Under the pieces are notes generated by a model. That model ran no database searches. It was given only the letters and a program-made list of their open reading frames with translations, and was not told the origin of the DNA. A stretch of DNA of 64,000 nt from Dictyostelium discoideum (Eukaryota): contig CM000152.2 of the NCBI GenBank assembly GCA_000004695.1, positions 5,504,001 to 5,568,000 on the forward strand, read 5' to 3'. Positions 7,594-18,013 of the stretch are shown here, piece by piece; position 1 is the stretch's first letter, and every line of letters starts with the position of its first letter. Position numbers and translations under genes: made by a program.

Positions 7594-9272
7594 TTAACTT
7601 TGAATTGTTGTTAAAAAAAAAGTTGGAACTGTTGCACGGAATGAATAATCTCTATTATTTAATTTAACCATTGTAAAATAACCTCCCATATGACCCTGAG
7701 AACGTTCAATCTCACACCTACTACAATATTCACTAAATTTATTTATTTATTAATTAATTAGTATATTTTTTAATAATAAAAGAGAGAGAGAAAATATTAT
7801 TATTATTATTTTATTATTTATTTAATTTTATACATACAAAGTTACACCAGGTTTTATAATTGGAAATTTACCAATTACACCAGGACCATTTACATTTGAA
7901 GAACCATCAATTGTTGATATTATCCAAAAACGATGAGTTAATTGACAAGCATTTTTTGGATCTTCATCTTTATCCATTGAGATAGTTACTCTATAAAAGA
8001 AGGTATAAGAATTTTCATCCTCTGGTATATAAACTGCACTACATTTTATTTTAACACCTTGAGTTACAACCTCATCACCATTGTAAGGTGAAAACTCTGG
8101 ATATCTATAGAGTATTTTCCTTCTAGTTGTGAATACACCTTTCTCTAATGCAAAAGCATGTAAATATAAAAATTCCCAAAAACTATTTGCAACAATCATT
8201 GGACTACCCGGAGCAATTAATAAGATTTGGTCCTTTTTAAAACTCTTTTCTTCAATTTTAAAATCCCGCAATGCCATTATATAATATCTTCTAGAGGCAG
8301 AACATGCTACAAATAAAACATGTTGAAATGATTGCATATTTCTAGTCTTTTTATATAACGATATCGTCTTTTCAAGTGATAATAAAAATATATTTGTTTT
8401 TGATTCATATGCTTCAACTGTACCTAATAAACCATATCTTGTAAATTCTTTTTGTCCATTATGAATTAACATTGAACATAAATAATCAGCTGGTAATTTT
8501 ATATTATTATCATTATTAACAACATTATTTGAACTATTATTTGAACTATTATTTACAAATTTAATAGTTGAAATTAATTTATATAATTTAGTATGAGAAA
8601 TCGAATGAAAAGATTTTTTCATTGAATCCATTGAATTTAAATCCATCCAATTTTCAAATCTATCCCAAATGTATCTCATTGTTTTATAATGATGAATTAT
8701 ATTTGAATTAAATCTTTGATGTAATAATTTATTTACAATAATTGGTGTTAATTTTTCTTTTTCTATTATTTCATTTTGTTCTCTTTCTAAATCTAAATGT
8801 TCATTTTTATTTTTATTTTGACTTTTATATGATTTTCTTAATTCTTTTAAATAATTTGCTTCTTCATTAATATCATCGTCATCGTCATCATTATCTTCAT
8901 CTTCATCATCTTCATCATACTCTTCATCATACTCTTCATCATACTCTTCTTTTTCATCTTCATTTTCTTCATCTTTATTATCCTCCTCCTCCTCATTATT
9001 AGTATTAACATTATTTTCTACTTCTTCATTATTAATATTTAATTTATATTTGATAATTGCATTATCAGTTGATAATAAGAAATCTTTTTGAATAATATCA
9101 TTCCAAATCATATTTGAAATTGAAGAATTTGAAATGATTTGGTTAAAATATAAATTAACTTGAGATAATTCTAAAAGTGATTTTGTATGTAAATTTTGTA
9201 ATATAATTAATAAATTTTCAAATGGTATATTTAAAATGTAACATGGTTGTTGTTGTTGATTATCTTCATCTT

Positions 9273-11940: not shown

Positions 11941-13522
11941 TTATTTAATTTTATTTTTTCTATTTTTAATTTTATTTTCAATAATTTCTTCATTATTGTT
12001 ATTATTATTATTATTATAATTATTATTATTATAATTAATATTATTATTATTATTATTATCATCATTATTAATTAAAAAGTTTTTAAAATTATTTTGTCTT
12101 TTTTGAGAAATTTTTAAAAATAAAATGAAAATAATTGTAATGAATATTAAGAATAATAAAATTAAGATTAATTCAAAATGTTCTAATAAGAAAGCTGATA
12201 AAGATTTACCAGAACAATTTGGATTCATTAAGATTTCATTTACCATTGTTTCATTTGTACCTTTGAAATTACAAGTTGAACCACCTTGATCTAAATCGAC
12301 TAAACAATCGAAGCCATGATAAATTTGTCTTTTGAAATTGAATTTTCTAAATGAACTACTTGCCAATTCAAATTCATTCTTTGCAGTGATAATATTATTT
12401 TCAAATTTATTATTTGAATCTTGGAAATCAACATTTGAATAACTACAATAAATTGAAGACCCAAATAATGTTGCAACATTATTAACTATTCTATTCGATT
12501 GTAACTCCAATGAACATCTATCATTACAATTACTAACATAAATTGAACCACCATTATATGCATAATTCTCATAAAATATTGAATCAATAATTGTAATACG
12601 TTGTTTAATATTATTTAAAAACAATGCACCACCTAAACCTCTACCATAATTTTTATAAAAACTACTTGAATCAATTAAAATTTTACCTGAATTTATAATT
12701 GAAATTGCACCACCACCATTATTATTATTATAATTAATATTTTGATGATGATTGTTATTATTTTGATTATTATTTTGATTATTAATTGTTGTTGTTATAC
12801 CATATTTTTCATTACTATCAAATAATGAATTAAAAATTTCAACAATTTGAAAACCTGAAACTAATAATGAACCACTGCCAATATTATCTTTAAATAATGT
12901 TTGTTTAATTAAAAGTTTATTAAATATACCATTTGCATTCATTGGTATATCACCATTATTTGATTTACTCTCTAAATTCAATGATATCCATGGTGAATTA
13001 TTACTACCTCTTATATTTTTAATAATTGAATTTTCAATTTCAATATGAGTTGATGATTGTTTTGATTCAATTTTAATTGATGATTCATCCAATGGTATTG
13101 AGTTTTGATGAGTACCAATGAATCTTGAATTCTTTATTATAATTTGTACCCTTTGATTTGATATTTCTTTAACATTTAAAAATTGATTAAAATCATTTTC
13201 AAAATTACAATTTATAATATTTAAATTTAATCCACCAATACTACCACCACCACCACCACTATTACCACTATTACCACTGCCACTATTATCAAAATTTAAA
13301 ATATAATTCATTGAATTACTATCTTTAAATGAAATTCCTTTAAATGTAATTTCATTTTTTGATTTATTTGATAAATAAAACATTGGTTTTTCTGATCCAT
13401 CATTTTTAAAAATAACTTGTTCATTTGGATTTTGTTGTTTTGCTAATTGTTCAACTTCTTCTTCTAATATTTCATATTCAATATAACTTTCATCAAATGG
13501 ATTAATATTATCTTTATCATTT

Positions 13523-13557
<35 letters not shown>

Positions 13558-13965
13558 TTCGTCATTATCATCATCATTATCATCATCAATATCAATTTCT
13601 TCATTATCTTCTTCATTTGGATCAATTAATTTTAAAATTGGTAATTCTTGAAATAATGTATTTTCAAATGAAATATTTAAATCACTTAAATCTTGTTGAA
13701 TATTTTTATATTCACCTGGTGTAATATGAACTTTTATCTTTGAATAACTATTAATTGATTTATATTTATCTTTGATTTGATTGATTGCATAATCAATGCT
13801 TTTACATTGATGTTCATTTCCTAATAAACCACAACCATTTTCATCTTTTCCTTTACTATTTGAAATATATAAATCAATTTGATTATTACTTTGACAATAA
13901 TTAAATGATATAGTAATAAATAAAATTAAAAAAATAAGTGAAAATGAAATAATATTCACTTTCAT
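11941..13965 (-). CDS. Secreted/membrane protein with a predicted right-handed beta-helix (pectin-lyase-like fold), an acidic N/D-rich insert and a C-terminal transmembrane helix
   Basis: The N-terminal signal peptide is MKVNIISFSLIFLILFITISFNYC. A D/E/N-rich low-complexity block follows. Repeated G/N/S-rich beta-strand motifs follow, such as 'GGGAISIINSGKILIDSSSFYKNYGRGLGGALFLNNIKQRITIIDSIFYENYAYNGGSIYV'. The C-terminal hydrophobic stretch is 'LILILLFLIFITIIFILFL', followed by a basic/N-rich tail. Single 674-aa ORF. Confidence 0.5.
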
Positions 13966-14228
13966 TTTTGTTTGGTTAATTTGAAAATAATTGAAAAAAA
14001 AAAAATTTTGAAAAATAAAAAAATAAAAATAAAAAAAAAATTAAATAATGTCATATTTTTTAATTTTACCTTTTAAATGTAATTTCAAATTGTTACTTTT
14101 GATAGCAACAAAACTACCTCGTCAATGAATAAAATTGCCATAGGATTTTAAGATTTTTAATTATTTCATTAATTTGAAAAATGAACTCGGAACGATTTCA
14201 GGCATAAAATTTAAAAAAACATCAAAAT

Positions 14229-14299
14229 GGGAGATTAGTTAAGTGGTATAATGCTACCTTTGGGTGGTAGCGTCCTGAGTTCGATTCTCGGATCTCCCC
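14229..14299 (+). tRNA. tRNA-Pro (anticodon UGG)
   Basis: Sequence: GGGAGATTAGTTAAGTGGTATAATGCTACCTTTGGGTGGTAGCGTCCTGAGTTCGATTCTCGGATCTCCCC. It folds as a cloverleaf: 7-bp acceptor stem, D-arm, anticodon stem CTACC/GGTAG around loop TTTGGGT (anticodon TGG), 4-nt variable loop, T-arm CTGAG-TTCGATT-CTCGG. The anticodon loop is identical to the eukaryotic tRNA-Pro(UGG) loop. Confidence 0.85.
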
Positions 14300-14320
14300 A
14301 AATTTTTTTAGAAAAATGTG

Positions 14321-14343
14321 GGGATCACATGTTCGATTCTTGT
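14321..14343 (+). promoter_or_regulatory. Putative external B box (ex-B) downstream of the tRNA-Pro gene
   Basis: The sequence 'GGGATCACATGTTCGATTCTTG' resembles the internal B box (GGTTCGAnTCC). It lies about 25-45 nt past the tRNA 3' end. This is the arrangement reported for many Dictyostelium tRNA genes. A mirrored copy accompanies the second tRNA. Confidence 0.4.
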
Positions 14344-15054
14344 AAAAAATGTGAAACCATCATCAAAAATTCAACAAGATAAATCATCAAACCAATATTT
14401 AATATTCTTTCTTATTAATAATTGGAGATGATATTGATATCCAATTTAATATCAATAATTTAATCAATTTACAAATTATTTATATCAATAGTCAAAAACT
14501 CTGGCTCATTTGGTTTTATTAATAATGGTAAATAACTTTATCTCTGATTTAAAGATAATTAATTAAATCTAATTTAAATTAATTTTACCACAATTAAATC
14601 TGATTTAAATTAATTTTACCACAATTAAATTCAATCTCTTAAGTAGTTTCAATTGATTGAAATATTATTAAAACTATACCTTTGAATTGGGTTTTTATTT
14701 ATTCATTTATTTATTTATCTATTAATTTATTTATTGATAATAAATAGAAAAAAATAAAAGGATAATAATAATAACTGCTTGAATCAAGTTTGATCTTTGG
14801 CTAACGTTTAATGAAGATGAAAACAAAATGATTTATTTTCTACTGAAATGATGTTTTGGGTGGATTAAAAAAAAAAGAAAATAATATTAAAAAAAAAAAA
14901 AAAAAGAAAAATATTTAAAATTTTTGCTAATAAAAAATAATTTTTTTTATTTATTTGCATTATGGTTTCTCGTAATATAAAAAAACAAAAAAAATTGAAT
15001 AATCCATTCAAGAATCGAACATATGATCTCCATATTGTTTTAAATAAATAAGTG

Positions 15055-15125
15055 GGGAGATCCGAGAATCGAACTCAGGACGCTACCACCCAAAGGTAGC
15101 ATTATACCACTTAACTAATCTCCCA
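15055..15125 (-). tRNA. tRNA-Pro (anticodon UGG), second copy, convergent with the first
   Basis: The plus strand is the exact reverse complement of the 14229-14299 tRNA ('GGGGAGATCCGAGAATCGAACTCAGGACGCTACCACCCAAAGGTAGCATTATACCACTTAACTAATCTCCC'). The flanks are also inverted copies. An ex-B-like box lies at 15009-15027 ('CAAGAATCGAACATATGAT'). Confidence 0.85.
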
Positions 15126-15408
15126 TTTTGATGTTTTTTTAAATTTTATGCCCCAAATCCTCTCGAATATTTTTTCAGCTTAACTACCTCGTCAATCAAT
15201 AAAAATTCCATAGGTGGATATTGATCAATAATGTGCCCAATAATTCACCAATCAACAAGTTTAATTACATTCAATAAAAAATAAAATAATAATGGAACTT
15301 AAATACACATTTTTAGCCTCCAAAGCTTAAGAATATCTATTTTACATAAATAACCTGTTTATTTAGATTGATCAAAAAGTTTATTTTTTAATTTATTAAT
15401 ATTCACCG

Positions 15409-16119
<711 letters not shown>

Positions 16120-16193
16120 TAATAATATTAATTTTTTTTTTTTTTTTTTTTTGTGAGATGGAGTTGAAATTAAAGAATTAAAAAAAAAAAAAA

Positions 16194-18013
16194 TTAAAAA
16201 AAATAAAAAAAAAAAAAACAATTATTGGAAAGGTATTTCAATTTTATTTTGCTATTATTTTGAGACGGTAAAAAGGGATTTTTAAGAAATTTTTTTTTTG
16301 AATATTTAATTACAGTTGATAACTTTGTGGATCCTAATATAATAGATCCTGATTCTTTGGTGACATTCCATTCATTAATGTCGATTTGAGGGTTAATTTC
16401 ATTTAATAATTTTGATTTTATGTCAACAATCATTGCTAATGATAAAGTGTTTGAATCAATTTGTTTTGATTTTGTAGAAGAAGGAGAAGAAGAAGAAAAT
16501 TGACTTTAAATTAATAAATTATTATTATTAATTAATAAATTTGAGAAATCTTTTGATTTACTAATTAAATCTATTTCATTTTTTACTTAATTGAAAAGCT
16601 CTTGTTAATAATCTAAGATATTGAATTTCTTTTGAGATATCTTTAAAAATTTCGTTTTCTTTATAGTTTTTAATGATGAAAGTGTCACGTTCATTGAATG
16701 ATAAATGATTTCCACTATTTCTAATTATTTCTTTAACTTTTCTATTTGAAAAAGCATCAGTAAAAGTTATACATAATAATGGTGTAATACCTAATGAAAG
16801 TACTTCTTTTATTTTATTATCAATAAATTGAATTCTTGGAAAAGCTAAGAAATCACGAATTGATACAATGAAAATGAAACAATTGATACTATAACGTTGA
16901 TCTGGTGGTAAGATAATACAATCATTGAATTTGGTACCATGGTGTATCTTGCCATCAGCCTTCATTTTTAATATAACATCAGTAACACCCAAACCCCAAA
17001 AAATCAGAACAAGAAACATTAATATTATTAAATGATTTTTGAATTGGGGAAAGGTTATCTTTTGATGATAATAAATCTTTAAGTGAAATATTATTTATGC
17101 TCGTTGTTATTTTAGTACTCCTAGACCTATTTACCATAAAATAATCCTCTAATTGGTTGTCTGGATTGAAAAGATTAACAAGACCATTCAACAAAGAACT
17201 TATACGATTCACCAAAATCTAAATCTCTTTTCAATTGAATAGTGAAACTTGAGTAATATTTATTTGATAAGAATTTAACTATTGTACCTGATGGTATTGA
17301 AAATTGACCATCTGGTTTTATTATAACATCTAATAATAAATCATCATAAATTAATTTAGTTTCATTTGAATTTGGATAAACCTCAATATTGAATGGAAAA
17401 TTCAAATATGGATCTTTACTACCACCATTAATCAATAATTTTATATCTTGATTAAAATTCTTTTCCAATTGAATTATTTTTTGATCTGGTAAAATTGATT
17501 GTAAATTATTAATAACAACAATATTTAGATTTGTGATTAAACTACAATTACATGCCAATCCATAGATTTCAACATTATCCAAGCTTAAATTGTCTAAAAA
17601 ACCATTAACTGAATCATCTGTCGATTTACCTGAACTAAAAATTAAAATCTTTGAATTAAAATCACTTGGTTCCCAACTTGATTCTAATATACCTTCAAAA
17701 CACAATTCCATTGCTTCACCCAATTTCGCTTCATTATTTGTTTTTGAAAATTTTATATCTTTTAAACCTTCTTTAATTTTTTCTTGTTCTGATTCAAACT
17801 CTAAAATTGTTTCAACACTCTCACCATATGTTATAATTTACAATCAATATTGAATTTTTCAAGTTGAGTAATGAAATACTTGATAATTACATTAAAAATT
17901 GACATCTGTGATGATGTTTCAATTAAAATTGAAAAATAATTAATTTTATTATTATTAATTTTAATCTCTGTTTTGAGGGTATTTCTATTTTTTTTTTCAT
18001 TTCCACCTTTCAT
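16194..18013 (-). pseudogene. Degenerate, frame-disrupted vWA-domain gene, paralogous to the intact vWA gene immediately upstream at 18317..20513
   Basis: Four consecutive ORF pieces on the minus strand, each in a different frame: 18013-17831, 17830-17175, 17215-16979 and 17019-16576. The frame switches at 17215-17175 and 17019-16979 lie in overlapping stretches containing homopolymer runs. At 17831 the first frame ends at a TAA, leaving only a 24-nt GT..AG candidate between the pieces. No AT-rich intron sequence separates the pieces. The pieces align in order to the neighbouring gene. 'YFSILIETSSQM' matches 'FVIFCIDISGSM', but the MIDAS DxSxS has been lost. '...EAKLGEAMELC...ILIFSSGKSTDDS' matches '...STALGSAVAAC...IIICTDGQSNMG'. 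'VEIYGLACN' matches 'ISVLTIKGTD'. A possible spliced tail exists at 16505..16194. Confidence 0.4.

What the first reader, a model, noticed from the sequence alone, without database searches (positions are those of the whole stretch)
14100..15235. Convergent inverted duplication of a tRNA-Pro(UGG) unit with ex-B boxes and a conserved upstream element
Two identical tRNA-Pro genes face each other tail to tail about 755 bp apart. The duplicated unit is larger than the tRNA. About 130 bp of 5' flank is mirrored, including a well conserved 'CTACCTCGTCAATSAATAAAA-TKCCATAGG' element about 90-110 bp upstream. The 3' flank with a B-box-like 'ATGTTCGATTCTTG' about 30 nt downstream is also mirrored. Dictyostelium tRNA genes are landing sites for TRE5 and TRE3 retroelements. 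I see no retroelement ORFs here, so this looks like an unoccupied target pair. The conserved upstream element could be a tRNA-gene-specific cis element.
Basis: partly seen in the sequence, partly recalled or inferred. Interest (0 to 1): 0.5.

Follow-up and report, generated by a model that had tools for sequence, protein, structure and literature searches.

The report
Rearranged tRNA-Pro gene pair in Dictyostelium
Two identical proline tRNA genes face each other in a Dictyostelium discoideum AX4 intergenic region. They are an old tandem pair in which one copy was flipped in this lineage, and the "conserved upstream element" is a local 33-bp direct repeat, not a tRNA control element.

Summary
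The two convergent, identical tRNA-Pro(UGG) genes and their mirrored ex-B boxes are real. The mirrored unit is about 165-170 bp: roughly 51 nt of 5' leader, the 71-nt gene, and about 43 nt of 3' flank. It is not about 130 bp of 5' flank.

The 33-mer (14112-14144 and 15182-15214) lies on the + strand in both copies. It is therefore a direct repeat flanking the inverted pair. It has opposite orientation and a different distance relative to each tRNA (84 vs 57 nt).

The window is D. discoideum AX4. The same intergenic region in seven related genomes carries the two genes as a tandem (+,+) pair. D. firmibasis has one copy and D. purpureum has none. Only AX4 has the convergent arrangement.

Flank markers show that the AX4 right unit (about 14997-15232) is the inverted counterpart of the left-hand unit of the closest available relative. 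The 33-mer is not recognisable next to any of the 15 related copies.

Best reading: ordinary Pol III genes of a known kind, a lineage-specific micro-rearrangement, and a by-product repeat. The locus is unoccupied by retroelements in AX4 but occupied in three relatives. Interest is low to moderate.

The parts
14112..14144 (+). 33-mer copy U1 (AACTACCTCGTCAATGAATAAAATTGCCATAGG). It sits at the point where AX4 stops being collinear with its relatives on the left side.
   Evidence: Direct repeat family D7 and core search. Collinearity with L006 ends at about 14104-14116. The 3' half plus the next ~35 nt belongs to the V' sequence family seen in L003 (+) and in L006/L007 (-).
14178..14228 (+). 5' leader of the left tRNA. 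This is the part of the 5' flank that is really mirrored.
   Evidence: Inverted repeat I1, alignment, position-by-position comparison.
14229..14299 (+). tRNA-Pro(UGG), left copy, in the ancestral orientation. A box TAGTTAAGTGG at +8. B box GTCCTGAGTTCGATTC.
   Evidence: Motifs were read against the consensus sequences quoted in PMC5391098 and PMC3159450.
14303..14309 (+). T7 run, Pol III terminator of the left copy.
14331..14339 (+). ex-B box GTTCGATTC of the left copy, at +32. The surrounding 3' flank (14313-14350) is of the type found at the right-hand (T2) unit of relatives.
14343..15008 (.). AT-rich spacer. It has no ORF and no retroelement remnant. It has no homologue in the related loci except a 28-nt low-complexity marker at 14922-14949.
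14997..15232 (-). Block of about 236 nt that is the inverted counterpart of the left-hand (T1) tRNA unit of isolate ACTFIR (L006 12452-12690). It contains the right ex-B box, the right tRNA, its leader, U2, and 18 nt beyond U2.
   Evidence: BLAST 79% over 238 nt, E=9e-54. Alignment. Markers Y-P and exB3-T1type.
15012..15020 (-). ex-B box GTTCGATTC of the right copy, at +34.
15054..15124 (-). tRNA-Pro(UGG), right copy, inverted relative to all other genomes examined. It has no T>=4 run directly after the gene. The first such run (T8) is at 14987-14994.
15125..15175 (-). 5' leader of the right tRNA (mirrored part).
15182..15214 (+). 33-mer copy U2 (AACTACCTCGTCAATCAATAAAAATTCCATAGG). It is an internal part of the 5' flank of the inverted unit.
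   Evidence: Its 3' half plus the next 18 nt matches 29/33 the reverse complement of L006 12452-12487, upstream of that isolate's T1.

Best explanation
The locus holds two ordinary Pol III-transcribed tRNA-Pro(UGG) genes of the usual D. discoideum design: internal A and B boxes plus an external B box about 32-34 nt downstream.

They are an old same-anticodon pair that arose as a tandem duplicate after the split from D. firmibasis. In the lineage leading to AX4 the locus was rearranged. One ~236-bp unit (5' flank, gene, ex-B box) now lies inverted next to the Rab-like gene, which gives the convergent arrangement.

The tRNA and its proximal 28-nt leader have since been kept identical in the two copies. 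The likely cause is gene conversion plus selection.

The 33-mer is not a regulatory element of tRNA genes. One copy (U2) is simply part of the 5' flank of the inverted unit. The other copy (U1) sits exactly at the left synteny breakpoint. U1 is most likely a short patch copied or converted from U2 (ectopic conversion or templated repair) onto an old, diverged paralogue of that flank.

Shown: gene identity, orientation, phylogenetic distribution, flank orthology, and absence of the 33-mer elsewhere in the data examined. Inferred: the order of events, the copying mechanism, and gene conversion.
For: Identity of the window:
- It is D. discoideum AX4 (genes DDB_G0282199 and DDB_G0282201).
- A second assembly of the same strain type has the same convergent arrangement.

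Phylogenetic distribution at the same intergenic region:
- Tandem (+,+) pairs occur in D. discoideum ACTFIR and ACTFIW, D. cf. discoideum ACTFIY and ACTFIZ, D. citrinum ACTFIU and ACTFIV, and D. dimigraforme.
- D. firmibasis has one copy.
- D. purpureum has none in 22 kb.
- All 15 copies compared are 100% identical over 71 nt; the two D. citrinum ACTFIV copies were not part of that comparison.

Flank orthology:
- The AX4 right unit aligns inverted to the ACTFIR T1 unit over 238 nt, including 108 nt of 5' flank.
- It also carries the T1-type sequence after the ex-B box.
- The AX4 left unit carries the T2-type 3' flank.
- The arms are as diverged from each other as from the units of other isolates. 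The duplication is therefore old.
- Both AX4 arms share a derived leader, GGCATAAAATTT. This points to later homogenisation.

The 33-mer:
- Both copies are on the + strand.
- It has sharp edges.
- There is no above-null match in seven other loci.
- The three U1/U2 mismatches make U1 resemble the V' family found at the corresponding place in relatives.

Literature:
- Same-anticodon pairs or triplets are described for D. discoideum (PMC8163159).
- External B boxes lie ~41 bp downstream of 66% of its tRNA genes (PMC3159450).
Against: - The path from the tandem to the convergent arrangement is not a single clean inversion. Undoing the inversion of 14997-15232 restores a tandem pair, but with the two unit types in the opposite order to ACTFIR/ACTFIW. 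The V' segment is also flipped (note 5).
- The closest available relatives are about 2.5-2.8% diverged in coding DNA. The timing is therefore coarse, and intermediate states are missing.
- The GC-richer 5' 15 nt of the 33-mer has no recognisable source.
- The spacer 14351-14921 has no homologue.
- The marker at 14922-14949 is low complexity.
- A genome-wide search for the 33-mer in AX4 could not be done.
Confidence: 0.7

Rival explanations
1. Recent inverted duplication. A single tRNA-Pro unit with long flanks was copied in inverted orientation in AX4, for example by fold-back or template switching at a stalled fork.
For: The gene plus 28 nt of leader are identical in both arms. tRNA genes are plausible fork barriers (general knowledge). 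D. firmibasis shows that a single-copy state exists at this locus.
Against: Beyond -28 and beyond the gene, the arms are only about 65-82% identical. That is no closer than to units of other isolates. The two arms carry different unit-specific distal flanks that are shared with ACTFIR/ACTFIW. Seven related genomes already have two copies here. A fold-back event would mirror the 33-mer, but it is direct. No hairpin or palindrome is present at the junctions.
Confidence: 0.1
2. The 33-mer is a functional cis element. It could be a binding site acting on the tRNA genes, on the neighbouring Pol II genes, or as a boundary. It would be kept in two copies by selection.
For: It matches 30/33 in otherwise unrelated AT-rich sequence, and its 5' half is unusually GC-rich. 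Both copies lie within 120 nt of a tRNA 5' end.
Against: Orientation and distance relative to the two tRNAs differ. It is not conserved at the orthologous positions in isolates that are ~97% identical in coding DNA, nor in any other species. There is no further copy in the 64-kb window. All three differences between the copies fall inside the element.
Confidence: 0.07
3. The 33-mers are a long target-site duplication. A 1.04-kb cassette (14145-15181) with tRNA-bearing terminal inverted repeats would have inserted into a site of the form A-U-Y'.
For: The layout is direct repeat, inverted repeat, spacer, inverted repeat, direct repeat. The direct repeats have sharp edges.
Against: The repeats do not abut the inverted arms; the gaps are 33 and 6 nt. 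No transposase or other ORF is present. The U1/X1 junction is contiguous in L003, and the leader/U2/Y' stretch is contiguous with a tRNA in L006. Neither inner junction is therefore new. A 33-bp duplication is far longer than known for Dictyostelium elements (own knowledge).
Confidence: 0.05
4. Assembly artefact. The right copy would be mis-oriented in the reference.
For: Inverted repeats can confuse assemblers.
Against: Two assemblies that differ by three indels over 14 kb agree on the arrangement. The arms are only 170 bp long and 666 bp apart, which is within single reads.
Confidence: 0.02

Closest known systems
D. discoideum tRNA genes with an external B box (ex-B), as used as targets by TRE5, TRE3 and DGLT-A retroelements
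   Same: Internal A box (TRRYNNARYNG at +8). Internal B box (GTCnnnnGTTCRAnYC). ex-B GTTCGATTC 32-34 nt downstream. Empty integration windows at about -47, -15 and +100. Relatives have elements at exactly those windows.
   Different: The right copy lacks a T>=4 terminator before the ex-B box. Otherwise there is no difference.
Same-anticodon tRNA gene pairs or triplets of the D. discoideum genome (PMC8163159, citing the genome paper)
   Same: Two 100% identical genes with the same anticodon, 0.8 kb apart.
   Different: The comparison made here shows that this pair is not a recent duplicate. It is an old tandem pair that changed orientation in one lineage. I could not retrieve what the genome paper says about the orientation of such pairs.
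Micro-inversions and breakpoint-associated short duplications or templated insertions at rearrangement junctions (general DSB-repair phenomena)
   Same: A small (~236 bp) inverted block. A short (33 bp) copied patch lies at one breakpoint.
   Different: The copied patch is direct, not inverted as in the staggered-break inversion model. The mechanism is inferred, not shown.

Membership tests
Eukaryotic nuclear tRNA gene (Pro, UGG) | Cloverleaf with anticodon UGG and a full-length match to the tRNA covariance model | tested here: met
   ARAGORN. Rfam RF00005 57 bits, positions 1-71/71, for both copies. Fold.
D. discoideum tRNA gene with ex-B box | A box TRRYNNARYNG at +8 and B box GTCnnnnGTTCRAnYC inside the gene | tested here: met
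   TAGTTAAGTGG at +8 and GTCCTGAGTTCGATTC, read. Consensus sequences are from PMC5391098 and PMC3159450.
D. discoideum tRNA gene with ex-B box | Second B-box core GTTCRAnYC a few tens of bp downstream of the gene | tested here: met
   At +32 (left) and +34 (right). The same position holds in 10 of 15 related copies and is degenerate in three more.
D. discoideum tRNA gene with ex-B box | Oligo-T Pol III terminator directly after the gene | tested here: inconclusive
   Left copy has T7 at +4. Right copy has only T3 runs, and the first T>=4 is at +60. The minimum T run needed in Dictyostelium is not known to me.
Same-anticodon tRNA pair of D. discoideum | Two genes with identical anticodon and sequence, close together | tested here: met
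Recent inverted (fold-back type) duplication | Arms uniformly near-identical, with flanks mirrored up to the breakpoints | tested here: not met
   Arms are 82-85% identical outside the gene and the proximal leader. This equals the divergence from other isolates' units. The 33-mer is direct. The distal flanks are of different unit types.
tRNA-gene-specific upstream promoter element | Fixed orientation and distance to the gene, and conservation at orthologous or other tRNA genes | tested here: not met
   Opposite orientation, 84 vs 57 nt. No match above shuffled controls in seven loci holding 13 tRNA-Pro genes. A genome-wide test was not possible.
Retroelement-occupied tRNA target (TRE5, TRE3, DGLT-A, Skipper-2) | Element ORFs or LTRs in the -15, -47 or +100 windows | tested here: not met
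   No ORF of 70 aa or more. The spacer has no similarity to the elements found in relatives or to anything else held. A Dictyostelium repeat library was not available.
DNA transposon-like cassette (TIR plus TSD) | Target-site duplication abutting the terminal inverted repeats, and an empty site in relatives | tested here: not met
   Gaps of 33 and 6 nt. The inner junctions pre-exist in relatives. No empty site is seen in nine loci.

The most novel reading that the evidence does not exclude
This tRNA-Pro intergenic region may be a recurrent micro-rearrangement hotspot. About 240-bp tRNA units and short pieces of their 5' flanks would be repeatedly flipped, exchanged, partly duplicated and patched between closely related amoebae while the 71-nt gene stays invariant. 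The driver would be breakage at Pol III/TFIIIC-bound DNA or at retroelement integration attempts. The 33-bp direct repeat would then be a repair scar (templated patch) marking such an event.
Probability: 0.3. Interest if true: 0.45.

Novelty: already known. Interest (0 to 1): 0.25.

Why it matters
The genes themselves are routine. The comparison is still useful in three ways.
- It removes a tempting false lead. The "conserved upstream element" is a locus-specific direct repeat, not a cis element.
- It shows that a same-anticodon pair in the reference strain is an old pair kept identical by homogenisation, not a fresh duplicate. That bears on how the many tRNA pairs of D. discoideum should be read.
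- It documents strong structural turnover around an invariant tRNA: orientation change, LTR and non-LTR insertions, and partial tRNA copies. If this holds at other tRNA loci, it would make tRNA genes markers of fragile sites in these compact genomes.

Tried and rejected
- Palindrome or hairpin origin of the 33-mer around CCATAGG. DNA folds of both junctions and of the ACTFIR counterpart are no better than shuffles.
- A second direct repeat after the left ex-B box and after Y'. The alignment is not significant; 96 of 200 shuffles do as well.
- A single-inversion model. It is incompatible with the signed marker order.
- Spacer as a retroelement or LTR remnant. There are no hits once low complexity is masked.
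- The 33-mer as a dispersed element. There is no other copy in the window.
- Metagenome scan. Two hits to the core are unrelated coding sequences with no tRNA nearby, about what chance predicts.
- The 33-mer as a coding relic. Its reverse complement reads ..ILFIDEVV.., but the open frames are only 19 and 32 codons.
- Looking for closer AX4 relatives through exact look-ups of the two flanking proteins. Only the second AX4-type assembly was returned.
- The Dictyostelium genome paper could not be retrieved.
- A literal text search for the motif in papers found nothing.

Full report
**What is in the sequence**

ARAGORN finds exactly two tRNA genes in the 64-kb window. Both are tRNA-Pro with anticodon UGG, at 14229-14299 (+) and 15054-15124 (-). 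Rfam's tRNA model matches both at 57 bits over the full model, and the sequence folds as a cloverleaf.

The genes are identical, tail to tail, with 754 nt between them. The inverted repeat around them is 14178-14315 versus 15038-15175 (138 nt, 89%). It continues, with a small indel, to 14342/15009.

The mirrored unit therefore consists of:
- about 51 nt of 5' leader, of which the proximal 28 nt are identical and the rest is about 65% identical;
- the 71-nt gene;
- about 43 nt of 3' flank ending in a B-box core, GTTCGATTC, at +32 (left) and +34 (right).

The gene carries the A box TAGTTAAGTGG at +8 and the B box GTCCTGAGTTCGATTC. These fit the D. discoideum consensus sequences TRRYNNARYNG and GTCnnnnGTTCRAnYC (PMC5391098, PMC3159450). 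External B boxes about 41 bp downstream are reported for 66% of D. discoideum tRNA genes (PMC3159450). These are textbook Dictyostelium tRNA genes.

**The 33-mer**

- It matches 30 of 33 positions, far above chance. The best GC-containing 33-mer pair in 100 shuffles of the intergenic region reached 23.
- The 21-mer core occurs twice against 0.01 expected.
- Both copies are on the + strand (family D7). It is a direct repeat that brackets the inverted pair, not part of the mirror image.
- Relative to the left tRNA it lies at -117..-85 in one orientation. Relative to the right tRNA it lies at -58..-90 in the other orientation.
- The distances to the inverted arms are 33 nt and 6 nt.
- The similarity has sharp edges on both sides.

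The claim that about 130 bp of 5' flank is mirrored is therefore wrong.

**Where the window comes from, and the comparison**

The flanking proteins identify D. discoideum AX4. DDB_G0282201 lies at 11941-13965 (-) and allantoinase DDB_G0282199 upstream of it. A Rab-like gene with a polyQ tract ends at 15409. A second assembly of the same strain type differs by three indels in 14 kb and has the same convergent pair.

Using the allantoinase orthologues as anchors, I fetched the same region from nine other genomes. All loci have the same gene order and orientation.

| Genome | tRNA-Pro(UGG) copies | Orientation | Spacing (kb) |
|---|---|---|---|
| D. discoideum ACTFIR | 2 | + + | 1.19 |
| D. discoideum ACTFIW | 2 | + + | 1.38 |
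| D. cf. discoideum ACTFIY | 2 | + + | 0.97 |
| D. cf. discoideum ACTFIZ | 2 | + + | 0.79 |
| D. citrinum ACTFIU | 2 | + + | 1.14 |
| D. citrinum ACTFIV | 2 | + + | 3.0 |
| D. dimigraforme | 2 | + + | 2.9 |
| D. firmibasis | 1 | same orientation as the AX4 left copy | n/a |
| D. purpureum | 0 (in 22 kb) | n/a | n/a |

All 15 copies compared are 100% identical over the 71 nt. Parsimony gives the series: no gene, then one gene, then a tandem pair, then a convergent pair in the AX4 lineage only. The left AX4 copy keeps the ancestral orientation and the right one is flipped.

**Old pair, not a fresh inverted copy**

Outside the gene and the proximal leader, the two AX4 arms are 45/53 (5') and 36/44 (3') identical. 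Each arm is equally similar to the units of ACTFIR and ACTFIW.

The distal flanks are informative.
- AX4 15003-15232 aligns, inverted, to ACTFIR 12452-12685 (238 nt, E=9e-54). This is that isolate's left-hand unit (T1) with 108 nt of its 5' flank. The stretch TTGATCAATATCCACMTATGGAA is included.
- The sequence just after the AX4 right ex-B box (GAATGGA) is also T1-type.
- The AX4 left unit instead carries the 3' flank typical of the right-hand unit (T2) of ACTFIR/ACTFIW: AAAATGTGGGG..CTTGTAAAAAAT.

Both unit types thus predate the split of these lineages. Both AX4 arms share the derived leader GGCATAAAATTT, where the relatives have GGCAAAAATT. This points to later homogenisation of the gene plus about 28 nt, most simply by gene conversion (inference).

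**The rearrangement is not one clean inversion**

The signed marker order in ACTFIR is: A+, V'-, [Y-P, tRNA, e1]+, S3+, [tRNA, e2]+, R. In AX4 it is: A+, V'+, [tRNA, e2]+, S3+, [e1, tRNA, Y-P]-, R.

Re-inverting 14997-15232 restores a tandem pair, but with the unit types in the opposite order, and a ~40-nt flank segment (V') is flipped as well. At least three reversals, or an inversion combined with exchange of units, are needed. I could not resolve the path.

Most of the spacer (14351-14921) has no homologue in any fetched locus. The closest relatives available are 2.5-2.8% diverged in coding DNA, so intermediates are missing.

**What the 33-mer is**

- U2 is part of the 5' flank of the inverted unit. 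Its 3' half plus the following 18 nt matches 29/33 the reverse complement of ACTFIR 12452-12487, and the stretch runs on into the leader and tRNA there.
- U1 sits where collinearity with ACTFIR/ACTFIW ends on the left, at about 14104-14116.
- The 3' half of U1 plus the next ~35 nt belongs to a related flank family (V'). This family is found in + orientation in ACTFIY and in - orientation next to the same anchor in ACTFIR/ACTFIW.
- The three U1/U2 mismatches all make U1 V'-like.
- The 5' 15 nt (AACTACCTCGTCAAT) are identical in the two AX4 copies and have no recognisable counterpart at either position in relatives.
- As a whole, the 33-mer finds nothing above shuffled controls in the orthologous intergenic regions of seven genomes. 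The core has no match with up to 3 mismatches in the loci tested, nor an exact match in the others.

My reading is that two old, diverged paralogous flank segments were partly homogenised in the AX4 lineage, or that a patch was copied from U2 to the breakpoint. The mechanism would be ectopic conversion or templated repair. This step is inferred.

A tRNA-specific cis element is not supported. Orientation and spacing are inconsistent, and the sequence is not conserved even in isolates about 97% identical in coding DNA. What I could not do is scan the rest of the AX4 genome. A metagenome scan returned two unrelated coding sequences.

**Retroelements**

There is no ORF of 70 aa or more and no similarity of the spacer to anything else held. 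The relatives show the site is used.
- D. firmibasis has a two-ORF non-LTR element with a reverse-transcriptase ORF2. It lies in the same orientation as the tRNA and starts about 85 nt downstream, the TRE3 position (PMC5911963).
- ACTFIW has a ~270-bp insertion with TGTAATAAAG...CTTTATTACA ends 17 bp upstream of its second copy.
- ACTFIY has a 390-bp insertion with TGTAAT...ATTACA ends 13 bp upstream of its first copy. Both lie within the DGLT-A window of 13-33 bp (PMC5006619).

**Verdict**

The feature is a known kind of object. Same-anticodon pairs are described for D. discoideum (PMC8163159), and ex-B boxes are well known.

The added value is the evidence that the convergent orientation is derived and that the "conserved element" is a local repeat. 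The most novel reading still open is that this region is a recurrent micro-rearrangement hotspot around an invariant Pol III gene. I give that about 0.3.

Noticed in passing
window 14987-15053 (minus strand, downstream of the right tRNA): The right tRNA-Pro copy has no T>=4 run directly after the gene (ACTTATTTATTTAAAAC). The first one (T8) is at +60, beyond the ex-B box. The other 14 copies compared (eight genomes in all) have T4-T7 starting at +3..+7. The right copy may give 3'-extended precursors or be weakly terminated.
   Followed up: partly
L002 (D. firmibasis) about 9190-9254, minus strand: The 60 nt after the single tRNA-Pro are a decayed, internally deleted second tRNA-Pro copy. It has an anticodon-arm-like stretch, a T arm, the acceptor 3' strand and a T run. 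Its ex-B box is the B box of that relic. This suggests ex-B boxes can originate from degenerate tandem tRNA copies.
   Followed up: partly
L008 (D. cf. discoideum ACTFIZ) 12447-12532 and 13090-13324: Tandem partial copies with a 56-nt period, each made of the 5' leader plus the first 9-14 nt of the tRNA (..CCAAAATGGGAGATTA..). They lie upstream of both tRNA-Pro genes: one extra copy before the first gene and three before the second.
   Followed up: partly
L007 13687-13957 and L003 12521-12910: LTR-like insertions with TGTAAT...ATTACA termini lie 17 and 13 bp upstream of a tRNA-Pro gene in two wild isolates. The site is empty in the other isolates. Position and termini fit DGLT-A-type solo LTRs (PMC5006619). 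They were not compared with a repeat library.
   Followed up: partly
L002 3974-8892 (minus strand): A non-LTR retrotransposon (ORF1 413 aa; ORF2 1225 aa with RVT_1) starts about 85 nt downstream of the D. firmibasis tRNA-Pro, in the same orientation as the tRNA. This is the TRE3-type position.
   Followed up: partly
window 14561-14622: A 31-nt unit (AATTAAATCTRATTTAAATTAATTTTACCAC) is duplicated in tandem inside the spacer, 97% identical.
   Followed up: no
window 15445-15567: A long (TTG)n run. On the minus strand it is the CAA-encoded polyglutamine tract near the C-terminus of the Rab-like protein (ORF 15409-16221). The tract is also present in the relatives.
   Followed up: no
window 14112-14144 and 15182-15214, minus strand reading: The reverse complement of the 33-mer translates to PMAILFIDEVV / PMEFLLIDEVV, which is Walker-B-like. 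The two metagenome hits to the core are coding sequences with that motif. The open frames in the window are only 19 and 32 codons, so this is probably coincidence.
   Followed up: partly
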